A stretch of DNA of 41,644 nt. Origin: a virus. Taxonomy: Duplodnaviria > Caudoviricetes. The position numbers and the translations under genes were made by a program. The stretch is from IMG/VR virus record IMGVR_UViG_3300032285_002367, positions 1-41,644 of that record; one strand, given 5' to 3'. The notes under the pieces are model-generated. The model did no database searches and was not told the origin of the DNA. It saw only the letters and a list, made by a program, of their open reading frames with translations. This document shows, piece by piece, positions 8,348-15,264 of this stretch (the first letter of the stretch is position 1; the number at the start of each line of letters is the position of its first letter).

Positions 8348-10436
8348 ATACGCTGTTTTAATCACTTGTCAGGAATATGTAGAAGTAGATGCTAAGGACG
8401 CAAGAGACGCAGAATGGGTAGCTTATCAAGATTACAGAAAAGGCGAGCTTGAGATTGAACCGCATTTTGTTTTTGTATGCGAAGAGTGCGATTTAGTGGA
8501 GGAAGAATGAAAGCTATGATTGAAGTAGATATTCCAGCAGGCAGGTCAATAGCTGAAGCACACGCTGCAGTTAAGCGGGCTTTTGATGAAGATTGGGTAT
8601 CAATATGGTGGCATATATCAGATGTCCATGAGCAAGCTAATAATTGGGATTCAGACGAACCAAACGAGATAACCGACGAGGAGGCAAGGGAAGTGCTTAG
8701 ACTTGCCGATAAGAACCATGACAGTAATGTAGGTATTTGTTGGGAAGTGCTCGAATCGTGGATTGATTATGTAGTCCAGCAAAGGAGAAAGAAAGCATGA
8801 CACGCTATCAAATGCAACATGAAATTTATACTTTGATGATGGATATTTATCCTGAATTGCAGCATCAAGAATTAGAAAACCATCTTGTTAATTTATGGAA
8901 ATGCACAGACGACTATTTAATGAAATATCTTGAAACTACAAAGGACATAGCATCATGGAAATTACATTGAATTTAGAGCAATACAACAAAATACGCCGAT
9001 TAGGAGATTTTGCCGATTGGTATTTAGAAAATATGGAAACCAGCAATAGAGCTTATCAGGCTGATAAAGAAGATATTGATTGGGCTCATGAAGTATTCCA
9101 AGAAATTGACGCAAAACTAAGGGAGAAGTTATGAACAGAGATAGCATGGTGCAACGCTTAATTCAAGATGACATCAATACGATTGGGCAGGGTTTTGAGG
9201 TAGGCGATACTGATTACTTATATGACATTCTTTTAAATAATATAGGCTATGATAAGCAGACGCTGCGAGAGATTATTGACCAATACAACGCAAGAACATG
9301 GGAAACCGAATAATGGAAAAATGCACAATTTGTAGCGTAGAGTTTTCTATTATGAAAGAGGGCGGGATTGCTGGTGAGTTTGGAATTTTACCGGTGCAAT
9401 TTTGCCCGACATGTTTATGCTGTATTTTAGATATGACAGAACAATTATTAGGAGAAGATTATGAAAGCATTTCCAAGCAGAGCACCAATTAACGCCGATT
9501 GCATTGGCATTGTAGAGAACGCCGGCATGGACTTGCTGGATTATCACGCCGCCAGAGCCCTACCCTTAGCATACGCATTTTATAAAAACGGGATTGAGAG
9601 TGATGGCTGCGTATTTGAATGGGACGGAGACGACGACGAACCAACCATTGATTTAAACCTAGTCAGTAGATACGCTTATCTTTTAGGTAAGGCTATGCTG
9701 AAAGCTAAAAATGAGCTGGGTTGATGCATACGCACAATTTATTGAACAATTATATGAAAGAAAAGAAATGAAAACATATGAAGTAGTTTTGCACTTTTCC
9801 GGCAGCCATGTTTGTTATATCTCAGCACCGGACGAAGACGAGGCGATAGATGTTGCACATGACGAGCTTGCCAATATGCACCAGCTTGATAACTTAGAAG
9901 TCATGGATGTTGAAAGCTGCGAGGATTCTGAGGACGACGAGGACGATGGATTTTGAGCTTTACTATTTACCAATCGGACGGATTAAAGGTCATACAATGG
10001 TTTAAGACTATTGATGACCTTCTTAAATCTATGCGGGAAAACCCTAATAATACATACCATAGGAACACATGAGGATATTGACCGACCGGACTACCTTATT
10101 GCAGGCAGTCGATAGATTAGAGGCTAAAGGGGGTTTTGCCAATGCACTTGGTAAAGCAGCCCTTTTAGCGGATAATGAGAACCTGAAACGCCTTGTAAAC
10201 GCTTTCCCTGAATTATTCGAGACTAAGGTCTCTCTCAGATTGATTAAATGAACGCTACGATAATCTACTTAAAAGATGGTAAAAACGGGATGGTTGAAGT
10301 CTCGATGGAAATTATCGGGCAGCCTAACCAATCTTTCCTATTGAGTAAGAACATTGGTGAAAAGTTAGCCGAGCTGAAGATTACTAAGTTTTGCGACAAT
10401 GAATTTACGCAAGAGCCGCCGGAAATGCTGCAATAA
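8340..10436 (+). other. Further coupled small hypothetical early genes (8340-8510, 8507-8800, 9131-9313, 9313-9492, 9461-9724, 9768-9956, 10069-10251, 10248-10436)
   Basis: ORF track with RBSs and overlaps; no recognisable domains. Confidence 0.65.
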
Positions 10437-11202
10437 GCAACTTCCCAGCTTCGTAAGCACCCAATCTTAATTCAGCGTCATTAAAATCTTCCTTTTCAAT
10501 ATCGGAAACCCAATGGGGATACCCTTGTGCTACCTTGATTCCTACGGGGTCATTATCAGCCACGATAACGCAGTCAGGATAAGACTTTGCCATATCTGAT
10601 AGATTACCAGCAGAGAAACATACAACGAGCTTATAGCGGGTTTTGTTGCATTTTAGAGCCCGTCTTACAGACAAGGCAGTCGCCATGCCTTCACAGAGTA
10701 TCGGGATACCCTTGTTATCCATGATATATACCGCACCTTTATTACATTGTCCGGATAAAAACCGCTTAGTCCCATCTTGGGATATGGTTTGCAGACCGGA
10801 AATATTCCCATCAATCCGCATGGGGATTACTAGATTACCCTCCCACACATACCCTTTTAACTCGGGAAAACCTTTAGCAGCTAAATACGGGTGCGTTGTC
10901 TCAGCACATTGTGAAAGTATCCAGCTTGCCCGCTTAGCTGCGGCAGCCTGCCTTTGAAGGGTAATTTCCTGAGATTTTTTGCGTTTAGCTGCTAATTGAG
11001 GGTCAGGCTTGTAGTCTTGGCCTCGCCAAAGAACGGGCTTCTCATGCTTACTCCAATCTTGAAGAGCTCCACAATTTCCAGAATAGATATACGAACCATT
11101 CCGCTTATTTGGGTGGTCTAAAGTCTTTACCCTTGTCCATCTGTCATATACGAGATGGTCGATAATTAATCCGTGCTGCTCTGCAAAAGATTCAAATGTC
11201 AT
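10405..11202 (-). CDS. Toprim-domain primase-like protein
   Basis: HPYL..KG, LVIPM, LQ.I..DG.KRFL.G, CEG.ATALS, FSAGNL and ADND Toprim motifs. Confidence 0.88.
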   Translation of the reverse strand: MTFESFAEQHGLIIDHLVYDRWTRVKTLDHPNKRNGSYIYSGNCGALQDWSKHEKPVLWRGQDYKPDPQLAAKRKKSQEITLQRQAAAAKRASWILSQCAETTHPYLAAKGFPELKGYVWEGNLVIPMRIDGNISGLQTISQDGTKRFLSGQCNKGAVYIMDNKGIPILCEGMATALSVRRALKCNKTRYKLVVCFSAGNLSDMAKSYPDCVIVADNDPVGIKVAQGYPHWVSDIEKEDFNDAELRLGAYEAGKLLIAAFPAALA

Positions 11203-12677
11203 GCTGCTTTCCTATACTGTTTTGATTTTGAATAAGCAATCATTCTGCTTTTAATCCAACTAAGGGTCTGCTGGGAAGGCGGACGGGGCTCTACCTTTAA
11301 TCCATTAGGATAAGCATCAAACTTCTCCCGATACTTAATTGCTGCCCAACCTTCTTTATATCCCTTCATGCGTCCGTAATAGACTAATTCGGAATAGAAG
11401 TGGGTATTTTGTATTTGGAGCTTCTTATTTGCCTTATCTAGCTCTTCAAGAGTGCCAGCTATGCTTATAATAGAACTTAGAGCTTGCCTGACGTGTCCAC
11501 AGGAGGAGCAAGTATTGTTCGGAGATGTCCAAAGTGCGGCACAGGCGGGACACTTCGCTGCTTTCTTTTCTCTTTCAGTAGGCTCACGCTTAGTTACTTC
11601 ACCGCCGGTCTTGAGCTCCGTTACACCGTCGTGGTATAGGCTTTCCCAATCATCCCTGAACCGCAGGAAATTGCCTGAATGGTCTAGCAGGACACCGAAA
11701 TCCTTACCATCGTGAGGTCTTAAGATGCGTCCTATTTGTTGAACATGACTACTAAAGGACTTACTAAACGGTCTAGCAGATATGCCAATACAAACATCGG
11801 AAACGTCAAAACCCCGAGTAAGAATATCAGTGGCAATAAGACCATGAATATTAGTATCAGGTTTACCGAAGTCTTCAATAGTATCTCTTTTAAAATCATC
11901 GTCTTCCTTGTATGAAATAGACACAAAGTTATAACCGGCTGCTTTAAATTGGGTTACGAGTTCCTTGCCGTGCTCTACACCAGCACAGAACACGATAGTC
12001 TTCATTGGTTTGCCGTATATCTCATAGGTTTTTTTAACCCATTCCGCAACAATATCTCCGGTAATTTGAATACCTCGGGAAGTGGCTTCTGCCTGAGACC
12101 ATTCGCCGGCAATGAATTTTGCACCGGTCATATCAATTTCTTTGGCGATATAAACCTTCAGCGGCACAACCCAACCCTCTTCCACGAGTTCCTTCATGGG
12201 AGCTGCGCCAATAACATTCGTGTAGATGTTACCAAGACCGCTAGTAAAAGGTGTGGCAGTAAGACCGACTACTTTAATTTGAGGATTCTCTTGAATGAAG
12301 TCCACAGTCGATTTATACATGACATGGCACTCATCAACGATAAGCATATCAATATCTGGAAACTTGCGGCGGGCTAAAGTTTGAGATGAACAGATTTGGA
12401 TAGGTTCAAATGGACGATTGTTCCAATGACCACCTTGTCTTACTCCATGCCGGATGCCATATTTGGTTAATCTTTTGCTGGTCTGGTCAACCAAAACTAT
12501 CCGGTCTAAAACCATCGCTACCCGCTTACCTTCAGATGCGGCTTGCTGCATGATAGCCATAGCACATTCTGTTTTGCCGAACCCTGTAACGGCACAGAGA
12601 ATTTGGCGGGTATGCTCTTTGAAACCTTCGTTTAACTTCTGGATTACTTCAGATTGATGCGAGCGTAAAACTAACAC
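11199..12677 (-). CDS. SF2 DNA helicase (RadD/YejH-like) with C-terminal zinc finger
   Basis: TGFGKT, DECH, GLTATP, LTRGFD, QQIGRILR, CPAC...CSSC; AGGAG RBS before GTG. Confidence 0.93.
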   Translation of the reverse strand: MLVLRSHQSEVIQKLNEGFKEHTRQILCAVTGFGKTECAMAIMQQAASEGKRVAMVLDRIVLVDQTSKRLTKYGIRHGVRQGGHWNNRPFEPIQICSSQTLARRKFPDIDMLIVDECHVMYKSTVDFIQENPQIKVVGLTATPFTSGLGNIYTNVIGAAPMKELVEEGWVVPLKVYIAKEIDMTGAKFIAGEWSQAEATSRGIQITGDIVAEWVKKTYEIYGKPMKTIVFCAGVEHGKELVTQFKAAGYNFVSISYKEDDDFKRDTIEDFGKPDTNIHGLIATDILTRGFDVSDVCIGISARPFSKSFSSHVQQIGRILRPHDGKDFGVLLDHSGNFLRFRDDWESLYHDGVTELKTGGEVTKREPTEREKKAAKCPACAALWTSPNNTCSSCGHVRQALSSIISIAGTLEELDKANKKLQIQNTHFYSELVYYGRMKGYKEGWAAIKYREKFDAYPNGLKVEPRPPSQQTLSWIKSRMIAYSKSKQYRKAA

Positions 12678-13141: not shown

Positions 13142-13898
13142 TTTGCTTTACTCTTCCAATAGTTTATTTGACCGACCGATTGGGCATTCTTGGTCTGATA
13201 GAAATCACGGGAGGCTTGCAATGCTTTAATCTCCGCAGCTTGAGCCGCAATCTTGTTTTGAAGTTCCTCAATGATAGCTTCAGCATCCCATTCCTCACCG
13301 AGTATTTCTTTCTCAAGTTCAAGTATCGTCTTCTCATTCATTTCAAACTTCTGAGAGCCTGCTCCAGCTGATGTTGTGTTGCTTTACTGTTATTAACAAT
13401 TCTTTGTGCTTCATTACAGCGTTCTTTCCAACGAATAACTTGCTGGACTGAACCATTTTTTACGGCGTCCGGAATTTTGCTCATTTGTTCTTGTATTTGT
13501 TTTCTAATGTCATTCATTTCTCTTGTGTCTTTCTTAGTATTGCTCTAGCGAACGCAATGTAATCTTCATCTTCCATTGAAATTGTTTGAGGTAAAAACTC
13601 CATTTCTTTTAATATTTCCTCATCTGTTAGTGTCTTTGCTGGATGGATGTAGAGTGGAATGGTGTAGCCACCTTCAAATCTTGTATGTTCGTCAGGATGG
13701 ATGGCATCCATAAAAGTATTGCCCTTAAACATAGCCCACGCTACTGGCTCATTGTTCATTTAACTGCTCCACCAAAGCAGCAATCTCTTCAGACTGCAGA
13801 CGCAATACTTTAATTGCTTCTTGAATAAGCTCTAACCCCTTTACATGGGGATTTCCATAACGCTGGTCTAACGCCTCAATTAGTTCATTTGTATTCAT
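13138..13898 (-). other. Four coupled small genes (13138-13341, 13338-13517, 13514-13759, 13749-13898)
   Basis: ATGA overlaps; two (59 and 49 aa) are below the ORF-track cutoff and were translated by hand. Confidence 0.65.
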
Positions 13899-14059
13899 TT
13901 CACATCCAATACGTCACTTGCCTTGATGCCACGCTTTTCAAGGGCTTGCTTTAGTTTTTCCAATGCTTGTTTCTCATAATAGTTGACGTAAGAACGATGC
14001 ATCCCTAGCCTGTCTGCTACTTCTTGCTGCGTCATATGGTAATAGTCTTTTTGATTCAT
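13895..14059 (-). CDS. Small HTH protein (sigma70 region 4 / Cro-like), 54 aa
   Basis: Not in track. MTQQEVADRLGMHRSYVNYYEKQALEKLK; AAAGGA RBS; first gene of the replication operon. Confidence 0.75.
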   Translation of the reverse strand: MNQKDYYHMTQQEVADRLGMHRSYVNYYEKQALEKLKQALEKRGIKASDVLDVK

Positions 14060-14139: not shown

Positions 14140-14440
14140 CGTCTTCTCTCATAGGACAGGACGAGAGGGTGATAAGCACATAGGATAAATATGTGTATTC
14201 ACCGCATCTTCAGCCGACTTTCGTCCACTGCTCCCTGAGGTACTGTTCGTCTTCCAGAGCGCCTATCAACTAGAGTCGGCCATACTCCCCTACATCACCC
14301 ATCATGCTCTGTTCGTGTGGATACCCAGTCAAGTCCCACTGCGCCGTCCTGTCAAATCTTTCGATATAAGCGCAACCTGTCTTTAATATCTCGGTCATTA
14401 GATATATCCATGTAAGGTAGCTGGATGAACCGTCTGTATC
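14140..14440 (-). ncRNA. Candidate large structured RNA (or structured origin element)
   Basis: No ORF. Nested perfect helices 14155-63/14345-53, 14167-73/14294-300, 14213-19/14274-80, 14177-82/14190-95; GAAA tetraloop hairpins on the minus strand. Confidence 0.55.
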
Positions 14441-14447
14441 GTCGCTC

Positions 14448-14600
14448 TACGGCGGAAAAGGAAAAACCTCATAGGGTATGAAGTCTGATTGGACATTCGC
14501 TTATGTTTACTTCCCGCCACCTAAACATAAAAGAACAGTTCAGACCCCATACAATATGAGGCTTACGGCGGAAAGTTTAACATAAAAGAACCGTCCAAAG
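14448..14600 (-). ncRNA. c4/CI-like antisense RNA or attenuator element
   Basis: Long interrupted hairpin 14467-14561 whose loop and bulge are complementary to flanking repeats at 14448-58, 14564-74 and 14593-98; followed by a U-rich tract on the minus strand. Confidence 0.6.
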
Positions 14601-14617
14601 TCCGTTTACGCAAATGA

Positions 14618-14626
14618 AGTGTATCA
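14618..14626 (-). promoter_or_regulatory. Extended -10 promoter for the replication leader
   Basis: Minus-strand TGATACACT. Confidence 0.5.
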
Positions 14627-14762
14627 CAAGATTTAAAAAAAGTGGAGCTGTCGCAAATATAAAGCAGACATTTAAGCACCTTTGTCACTCCGAAACATCC
14701 TCACGAGATGAACTTTTATTATAATACCGGTCGTTTTGCATAGTATTAGGGTTTACCCTACA

Positions 14763-14791: not shown

Positions 14792-14824
14792 AAACAAATC
14801 AACAACTAACCTATGGAGAAAACC

Positions 14825-14953
14825 ATGTTTTCATTTGAAGAGCAATACAAAAAGTTTGAAGAATTAAACGAGCGCACCAAGCAAGCCTATGAGTTTTGGG
14901 TCAAAGCGGTCACTTCTACAGTAGAAGATTTCTTCAAGCCTAGAAAGAAATAA
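14825..14953 (+). CDS. 42-aa amphipathic helical protein in a stand-alone transcription unit
   Basis: Not in track. GGAG RBS; MFSFEEQYKKFEELNERTKQAYEFWVKAVTSTVEDFFKPRKK; has its own promoter and terminator. Confidence 0.75.
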   Translation: MFSFEEQYKKFEELNERTKQAYEFWVKAVTSTVEDFFKPRKK

Positions 14954-15018: not shown

Positions 15019-15264
15019 CCGATATATACACCTGTATACACCGAAATAGATATACATCGGACAACACCTTCTAGAAAAAACGCTGTAAGTGCATGAAATT
15101 TCAATAAAAAATCATGCAAACATAGGACATTGTCAGGCATAGCAAAAAGTTTCCCGAACGGGAAAAATTGATGAAAAAGTAGGCAAAAATAGAAAAATAT
15201 TCCCGAACGGGAAATTAGTACCTTTGAGTAGCAAATTAAAGAAGTCTTTAATACCTTTAGGTAT
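15019..15264. repeat. Cluster of paired operator-like palindromes
   Basis: TTCCCGAACGGGAA x2 (15151, 15200); TGCATGA..TCATGCA (15090-15118); CCGATATATA..TATACATCGG (15019-15060); TACCTTTGAGTA and TACCTTTAGGTA (15219, 15252). Confidence 0.8.

What the first reader, a model, noticed from the sequence alone, without database searches (positions are those of the whole stretch)
14140..14440. ~300-nt ORF-free region with nested long-range helices: candidate novel ncRNA or primer/origin RNA
Seen: compatible nested perfect helices GACAGGACG 14155-63/CGTCCTGTC 14345-53, GGGTGAT 14167-73/ATCACCC 14294-300, GCCGACT 14213-19/AGTCGGC 14274-80 and CACATA/TATGTG, plus local hairpins at 14386-405 and 14406-26. 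The minus strand has GNRA loops AUC-GAAA-GAU (14356-65) and GAC-GAAA-GUC (14216-25, competing with one helix). It lies between the c4-like switch and the first replication gene in an otherwise tightly packed genome. Inference: a multi-junction RNA (regulatory leader, ribozyme or ColE1-RNAII-like primer) that I cannot assign to a known family.
Basis: partly seen in the sequence, partly recalled or inferred. Interest (0 to 1): 0.78.

Follow-up and report, generated by a model that had tools for sequence, protein, structure and literature searches.

The report
New knotted RNA before phage replication
Freshwater phages carry a conserved 305-letter non-coding element, not in the Rfam catalogue, whose letters change in matched pairs as in an RNA predicted to fold into knots; it sits in front of the replication genes in a slot that related phages fill with other folded RNAs, and it possibly starts DNA replication by sticking back onto its own DNA, which is untested.

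Summary
Real, new structured RNA family at window 14454→14150, minus strand. I found 27 distinct full-length homologues, 42-96% identical to the window. On a structure-blind alignment of 8, 99.3% of cells pair and 17 of 58 pairs change on both sides (0/500 shuffles). It has two domains and three pseudoknots (two covary, one is conserved only). No Rfam hit, no conserved ORF, and folding energy is not significant.

The ACU/AGU part of the third helix does not; a GNRA hairpin wins.

It lies between a c4-like attenuator and the HTH/ParB-helicase operon. Relatives fill this slot instead with Rfam Betaproteobacteria-1 or other RNAs. Two of these carry a co-changing direct repeat that would let the RNA re-pair with its template. 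In this family the repeat is clear only in some lineages (7 nt here, 11 nt in a remote member).

Best guess (0.35): ColE1-RNA II-like R-loop origin or primer. Rivals: leader antiterminator, trans RNA. The scan noted the repeat-tag idea before on other DNA (e1-10047634), but not this sequence.

The parts
14150..14454 (-). Whole structured RNA element (305 nt, two domains); true transcript ends unknown
   Evidence: 27 distinct full-length homologues; model R1 hits it once in the window, 325 bits
14371..14451 (-). 5' domain closed by P1 (14451-48/14374-71); invariant junction ending in ACAG-R-Y-GGUU
   Evidence: 15 of 16 cells paired, one-sided changes only
14406..14426 (-). Hairpin H1 with near-invariant 11-nt loop
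   Evidence: 39 of 40 cells paired, 3 of 5 positions with double change
14386..14405 (-). Hairpin H2, loop AAUG-H-CCG
   Evidence: 11 of 12 cells paired, 2 of 4 double changes
14375..14395 (-). Pseudoknot PK1: loop of H2 (14395-93) with 14377-75
   Evidence: A-U, C-G and U-G at one pair; 9 of 9 cells; only 3 bp
14155..14353 (-). 3' domain closed by outer helix Po (14353-45/14163-55)
   Evidence: 40 of 40 cells, 5 of 8 positions with double change; top hit of the 198,323-pair scan
14317..14339 (-). Hairpin X
   Evidence: 35 of 35 cells, 4 of 5 double changes
14255..14311 (-). Long-range pseudoknot PK2 (14311-06/14260-55), crossing helix Pb
   Evidence: 25 of 25 cells, 3 of 5 double changes; 3 of 6 pairs
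14167..14300 (-). Helix Pb (14300-294/14173-67)
   Evidence: 19 of 20 cells, 3 of 5 double changes
14272..14288 (-). Hairpin Y, loop W-UG-R-CCG (resembles the H2 loop)
   Evidence: found by the unbiased scan; 37 of 40 cells; 2 double changes
14212..14281 (-). Predicted pseudoknot PK3: loop of Y (14281-77) with 14216-12
   Evidence: 18 of 20 cells, no double change: conservation only
14216..14225 (-). GNRA hairpin (a longer variable hairpin in the second subgroup)
   Evidence: base pairs AC/GU, GA/UC, GC/GC, GG/CC, AG/CU; 10 of 10 cells; GNAA loop in 19 of 19 parsed sequences
14177..14195 (-). Variable hairpin
   Evidence: sequence; different hairpins at this place in relatives, by eye
14150..14185 (-). 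7-nt direct repeat (14185-79 and 14156-50), candidate self-anchoring tag
   Evidence: equivocal across the family
14462..14615 (-). c4-like attenuator: leader target 14575-67, specificity loop 14521-10, hairpin arm and U tract 14483-62
   Evidence: leader-loop duplex of -17 to -37 kcal/mol in 9 of 9 loci tested, with changed loop letters; no Rfam C4 hit
14618..14628 (-). Putative extended -10 promoter
   Evidence: sequence; similar sites about 150-210 nt upstream in 10 of 13 members; inference
13895..14059 (-). HTH gene, first gene of the replication operon
   Evidence: Pfam HTH_3 / Sigma70_r4
11199..12677 (-). SF2 (ResIII / Helicase_C) DNA helicase
   Evidence: phrog_16, Pfam
10405..11202 (-). 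Toprim primase
   Evidence: phrog_2249, Toprim_3

Best explanation
The element is a conserved, covarying non-coding sequence predicted to fold as a three-pseudoknot RNA; it would be made when the upstream c4-like attenuator is read through, and it possibly acts in cis as a ColE1-RNA II-like origin RNA that would re-pair with its own template to open the DNA for the phage's helicase and primase. Shown: conservation, covarying helices, minus-strand polarity, position, single copy, and mutual exclusion with other folded RNAs in the same slot. Inferred: transcription from the promoter near 14620, gating by the antisense switch, R-loop formation through a short repeated tag near the 3' end, and any role in replication.
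For: Structure. Strand: 11 G-U against 3 A-C pair types on the minus strand. Context: it lies upstream of HTH/ParB and helicase genes wherever enough flank was read. Of 52 helicase loci examined, 4 carry this RNA, 17 a Betaproteobacteria-1-type RNA, 3 a third RNA and 2 a fourth; none carries both of the first two. Two slot-mates have a co-changing direct repeat, one copy inside the RNA and one just past it: Betaproteobacteria-1 loci 6.36 of 7 matches over 11 loci against 4.7-5.6 in tail-swapped controls; a 10-nt repeat in 3 of 3 loci of the third RNA, in two versions. The remote member L117 has an exact 11-nt repeat in that geometry, the L146 group 8-9 nt, the window 7 nt; permutation p=0.002 over 12 lineages, chosen after the fact. 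5 of 13 members have their own extended -10 directly downstream, so their replication genes would not need this RNA as leader. No initiator, DnaB-type helicase or polymerase hit among 57 window proteins scanned with PHROGs. R-loop origins are known in phage T4 (PMC3016281, abstract and passages).
Against: In the core family a fixed-position repeat was not found (4.36 of 7 against 4.27-4.64 in controls; best excess 0.6; none in the all-pairs scan). Without L117 the permutation p is 0.03, and with wobble allowed 0.07 (0.36 without L117); 8 of 12 lineages show only 3-6 nt. A second candidate tag changes without compensation in L150. There is no G4-TA-G6-like tract in the window's copy. 26 of 52 helicase loci had no slot RNA assigned in the flank held. 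The record is only 66% complete, and five small replication-module ORFs have no family hit, so a protein initiator is not excluded. The phage encodes its own primase. No experiment.
Confidence: 0.35

Rival explanations
1. Cis-acting mRNA leader that controls the replication operon, as a processive antiterminator (works like HK022 put) or a translational or stability switch.
For: It follows a hairpin and U tract within 45 nt in 11 of 13 members. No U tract is seen after its 3' end, and in L138, L119, L126 and L151 the next gene starts right behind it.
Against: 5 of 13 members have a separate downstream promoter-like site. The distance to the next gene varies, and a small ORF intervenes upstream in L126. 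No conserved terminator or SD-masking alternative came out of the 198,323-pair scan. put is much smaller (recalled; PMC9378689 seen as listing and abstract start only).
Confidence: 0.22
2. Trans-acting ornate RNA co-transcribed with the c4-like RNA and processed out, acting as scaffold, decoy or oligomer, like GOLLD/ROOL or as Rfam classes Betaproteobacteria-1 (sRNA).
For: Many invariant single-stranded junction bases and repeated ACAG and UG-N-CCG modules. A long helix closes the 3' domain. Metatranscriptome contigs of 3 studies cover part of it.
Against: A fixed position before replication genes and mutual exclusion with unrelated folds suggest a place-bound job. Contigs show no discrete ends or enrichment.
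Confidence: 0.22
3. Self-cleaving or processing ribozyme of a new class (PK2 crossing Pb recalls the HDV-like P1/P2 crossing) that releases the c4-like RNA or sets the mRNA 5' end.
For: Nested pseudoknots and invariant junctions.
Against: No Rfam ribozyme hit at E up to 10 in the window or E up to 1 in 10 homologous loci. The first pair of PK2 is C-G, not G-U, and I saw no J4/2-like catalytic C before the closing strand (by eye; consensus recalled). It is larger than known self-cleavers.
Confidence: 0.08
4. The structure works as single-stranded DNA, a primase recognition signal (G4/ssi-like).
For: It lies near helicase and primase genes. Comparative analysis cannot reliably tell ssDNA from RNA (PMC5737381, passage).
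Against: G-U bias, and GNRA loops also closed by A-U, fit RNA better. The size and pseudoknots exceed known ssi signals (recalled).
Confidence: 0.07
5. Chance helices, or conservation caused by a hidden small gene.
For: Folding z-scores are not significant. The ORF from the H2-loop AUG keeps a similar start in 22 of 27 sequences.
Against: That ORF runs 11-85 aa and is out of frame in 5 of 27. Double changes occur in 17 pairs of a structure-blind alignment; slid controls pair at 35-39%.
Confidence: 0.02

Closest known systems
Betaproteobacteria-1 RNA (Rfam RF02932)
   Same: Occupies the same slot upstream of the replication genes in related phages, in several directly behind the same c4-like RNA (6 of 7 loci scanned pass the gathering score; 17 of 52 loci by my HMM). 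Also pseudoknotted (three pseudoknots: recalled).
   Different: No sequence or model match either way (R1 hits 0 of 8 such loci). 120-nt model against 305 nt. Its loci carry a clear repeated tag, this family only in part.
ColE1 RNA II primer precursor (recalled) and T4 R-loop origins (PMC3016281, passages)
   Same: Long folded transcript next to a small antisense RNA system; proposed re-pairing with the template.
   Different: Different fold and size; no Rfam or plasmid match. The antisense RNA here seems to act on upstream termination, not on primer folding. The phage has its own primase and SF2 helicase.
STAXI motif (RF01728; PMC2864571, passage)
   Same: Repeated pseudoknot modules, near DNA-handling genes and sometimes near c4 RNAs.
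   Different: No Rfam hit; no tandem array or UUCG loops; freshwater phages rather than Enterobacteriales.
GOLLD / ROOL ornate RNAs (PMC5737381 passages; PMC12286853 listing only)
   Same: Large multi-pseudoknot RNAs of unknown function in phages.
   Different: About half the size of ROOL (581 nt); no tRNA genes in this window; no Rfam hit.

Membership tests
Betaproteobacteria-1 (RF02932) | Match to the Rfam covariance model at 49.4 bits | tested here: not met
   No hit in the window even at E up to 10, none in 10 homologous loci; positive controls score 85-105 bits
Betaproteobacteria-1 (RF02932) | Reciprocal detectability by a model of the new family | tested here: not met
   R1 hits 0 of 8 such loci at E up to 0.01
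ColE1 RNA II-like R-loop primer (works-like) | RNA segment able to re-pair with template near its 3' end (co-changing direct repeat) | tested here: inconclusive
   Negative in fixed-position scans; 7, 8-9 and 11 nt in three lineages, post hoc p=0.002-0.36 depending on the test
ColE1 RNA II-like R-loop primer (works-like) | G-rich tract needed for a persistent hybrid (feature recalled) | tested here: not met
   No G3+N0-2+G2+ tract in the window's copy; G5 runs in some members; G4-TA-G6 only in L191 and a similar tract in L058/59/63
ColE1 RNA II-like R-loop primer (works-like) | Persistent RNA:DNA hybrid, processing and priming of DNA synthesis | not testable with these tools
   Needs experiment
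ColE1 RNA II-like R-loop primer (works-like) | Control by a small antisense RNA | tested here: inconclusive
   c4-like switch upstream with a leader-loop duplex; no covarying pairing between it and the element
HDV-like / other known self-cleaving ribozymes | Rfam model match | tested here: not met
HDV-like ribozymes | G-U at the cleavage site and catalytic C in J4/2 (recalled) | tested here: not met
   PK2 begins with C-G in all 5 strand types; no such C seen by eye
tmRNA / tRNA | tRNA-like domain and tag frame | tested here: not met
   ARAGORN 0 genes; no conserved ORF
HK022 put-like antiterminator | Nascent RNA makes polymerase read through downstream terminators | not testable with these tools
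   Needs a transcription assay
c4 antisense RNA (RF01695), upstream part | Rfam model match | tested here: not met
   No hit at E up to 10; 'c4-like' rests on anatomy only

The most novel reading that the evidence does not exclude
These phages start replication without an initiator protein, from a swappable RNA module: one genomic slot, gated by a c4-type antisense attenuator, holds one of at least four different pseudoknotted RNAs (this family, Betaproteobacteria-1 with an overlooked 3' extension, and others that exchange domains with it), each anchoring itself on its template as an R-loop. This would give Betaproteobacteria-1 a function and define a new class of RNA-built phage origins.
Probability: 0.28. 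Interest if true: 0.86.

Novelty: new variant of a known kind. Interest (0 to 1): 0.68.

Why it matters
A 305-nt bacterial-virus RNA with three predicted pseudoknots and a well-supported secondary structure is a direct target for cryo-EM, probing and cleavage tests. Its exchange with an orphan Rfam family in one slot makes the function of both testable with one plasmid assay. If it is an origin RNA, it extends RNA-primed replication from ColE1 plasmids and T4 to a broad group of uncultured freshwater phages, and links it to antisense immunity.

Tried and rejected
- Single-sequence folding energy: not significant; the method ignores pseudoknots.
- RNAalifold on a plain alignment of 16 diverse members: poor, because the 3' halves misalign.
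- blastn against isolated phages and plasmids: no real match.
- GTDB scan: 1 contig of 3.2 kb with phage-type genes, titled Microbacteriaceae, possibly misbinned. The host is therefore unknown.
- Pattern scans gave many chance hits: 9 of 15, 42 of 54 and 10 of 20, dropped after reading them; 2 of 13; 4 of 18 were not hit by the HMM or by R1.
H1 loop kissing GURRG: 30 of 40 cells, no double change, unproven. Loop-2 pairing with the upstream CGGUU and GCGC/GCGC: no covariation, left open.
- A register slip in PK2 was corrected.
- Self-overlap made the family part of the tag scan invalid; repeated.
- Sequencing runs: contigs only; they show presence in RNA libraries, not ends, strand or level, and X1 covers 11 pieces over 20 kb.
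- The last viral scan for L117-like members returned only L117's own contig.
- Literature searches found no description. The Weinberg 2017 supplement could not be read. 3 of 6 held files of PMC10690425 were not searched and 3 more could not be read, so the motif may sit unnamed in that catalogue of phage RNA candidates.

Full report
Setting. The window is a virus record, 66% complete by CheckV. It has terminase, tail and ejection genes, RusA, a Sak annealing protein, a PD-(D/E)XK exonuclease, an SF2 helicase (11199-12677, minus) and a Toprim primase (10405-11202, minus). The finding lies in the non-coding stretch upstream of the minus-strand HTH-to-primase operon.

Observation. A nested set of perfect 9-, 7- and 7-bp helices arises in 6 of 2000 shuffles and in 1 of 276 window tiles. 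Folding energy is not unusual on either strand, nor in 10 of 10 members tested. Rfam gives nothing in the window at gathering scores, at E up to 10 locally, or in 10 homologous loci.

Homologues. A helicase search and pattern scans of viral, metagenome and genome contigs gave 75 HMM hits, many redundant. These reduce to 27 distinct full-length sequences; 4 partial ones were left out. Sixteen differ by more than 3% and are 42-96% identical to the window. They form two subgroups. A covariance model built on 8 sequences of the first finds all 7 tested of the second (81-108 bits) and two remote relatives, L117 and L191. It hits the window once.

Structure. Read on the minus strand, a 5' domain (P1 closing H1 and H2, with the H2 loop paired downstream as PK1) is followed by a 3' domain. 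The 3' domain is closed by Po and holds hairpin X, the long-range pseudoknot PK2, helix Pb, hairpin Y whose loop would form PK3, a GNRA or variable hairpin, and a second variable hairpin. Anchor-based counts over all 27 sequences give 85-100% pairing for these helices; slid controls are mostly 10-60% and reach 65-75% for the shortest helices. On a MAFFT alignment of 8 first-subgroup sequences made without structure, 99.3% of 460 cells pair and 17 of 58 pairs change on both sides (0/500 shuffles; slid 35-39%). The weak hairpin Pe (70% paired) was left out of that count. The shuffle control ignores relatedness, and there are only about 11 lineages. An unbiased scan of 198,323 site pairs over 10 lineages ranks Po, Pb, H1, PK2, H2 and X at the top, among a few competing registers, and revealed hairpin Y. 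PK3 and P1 have no double change and rest on conservation. G-U outnumbers A-C 11 to 3 on the minus strand. No ORF is conserved.

Context. An extended -10, a c4-like RNA and a U tract precede the element; the U tract is within 45 nt in 11 of 13 members, L126 has an ORF inserted and L127 is cut. HTH or ParB-like genes and the helicase follow. Among 52 of the 73 helicase loci (21 with short flanks or distant helicases left out), 4 hold this RNA, 17 a Betaproteobacteria-1-type RNA, 3 a third element and 2 a fourth; 26 were unassigned. Rfam confirms RF02932 in 6 of 7 loci scanned. The two families do not detect each other. Metatranscriptome contigs from three studies cover part of the element, but they cannot show strand, ends or level.

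Mechanism. An earlier scan note (e1-10047634, unreviewed) proposed that such RNAs anchor on their template through a repeated tag. I tested this. It holds for the Betaproteobacteria-1 loci and the third element. For the present family the fixed-position tests are negative. However, L117 has an exact 11-nt repeat, the L146 group 8-9 nt and the window 7 nt, with one copy before the Pb 3' strand and one at or just past Po. A test chosen after the fact gives p=0.002 with L117 and 0.03 without, and is not significant with wobble pairs. Together with downstream promoter-like sites in 5 of 13 members and no recognisable initiator among 57 proteins, I favour an R-loop origin or primer RNA at 0.35. A leader or antiterminator (0.22) and a trans-acting RNA (0.22) stay close; ribozyme (0.08) and ssDNA signal (0.07) are less likely.

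Comparison and novelty. It is not a member of RF02932, STAXI, tmRNA or a known ribozyme family by the tests run. It may work like ColE1 RNA II (features recalled) or T4 R-loop origins (PMC3016281: abstract start and passages). Papers seen: PMC5737381 (passages; supplement unreadable), PMC2864571 (passages), PMC10690425 (abstract start; 3 supplement files searched without a hit, the rest not searchable), PMC9378689 and PMC12286853 (search listing only). Searches found no description of this RNA. A sequence look-up in the scan's own notes found no earlier report of it.

Verdict. A real new family of large pseudoknotted phage RNA (structure about 0.95 certain, by inference from covariation) with an open function. 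Interest 0.68.

Noticed in passing
L003:3780-3880, L056:4230-4330, L013 and 8 more Betaproteobacteria-1-type loci: A conserved 3' extension of about 90 nt lies outside the Rfam model and carries a co-changing 7-nt direct repeat about 48 nt apart, often followed by AT-rich DNA.
   Followed up: partly
L058:3580-3860, L059:4070-4350, L063:2560-2850: A third, uncatalogued RNA-like element in the same slot behind an HNH nuclease gene, with a 10-nt repeat in two versions and a G-TA-G tract; no Rfam hit.
   Followed up: partly
L011:3480-3770, L050:3350-3760: A fourth conserved non-coding element in the slot, sharing a short motif with the third; no Rfam hit.
   Followed up: no
L191:2270-2560 (-): Shares only the 5' junction and H1 with the finding (28 bits) and has a different 3' domain with a G4-TA-G6 tract: apparent module exchange.
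   Followed up: partly
L117:2273-2584 (-): Remote member (34 bits) that keeps H2/PK1, Po, PK2 and Pb, has other inner parts, and has an exact 11-nt inner/tail repeat.
   Followed up: partly
window 14462-14628 (-): c4-like antisense attenuator whose loop letters change together with the upstream target between close relatives; likely immunity specificity; not matched by Rfam C4.
   Followed up: partly
L127 and L102, 25-110 nt downstream of the element: Two to four copies of a 9-12-nt repeat around a promoter-like site: operator- or iteron-like.
   Followed up: no
window 15144-15214: Two palindromic 22-nt repeats 49 nt apart near the strand switch, operator-like.
   Followed up: no
window 14813-14953 (+): 46-aa ORF with a good ribosome-binding site and its own terminator, divergent from the c4-like RNA, with no PHROG hit.
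   Followed up: no
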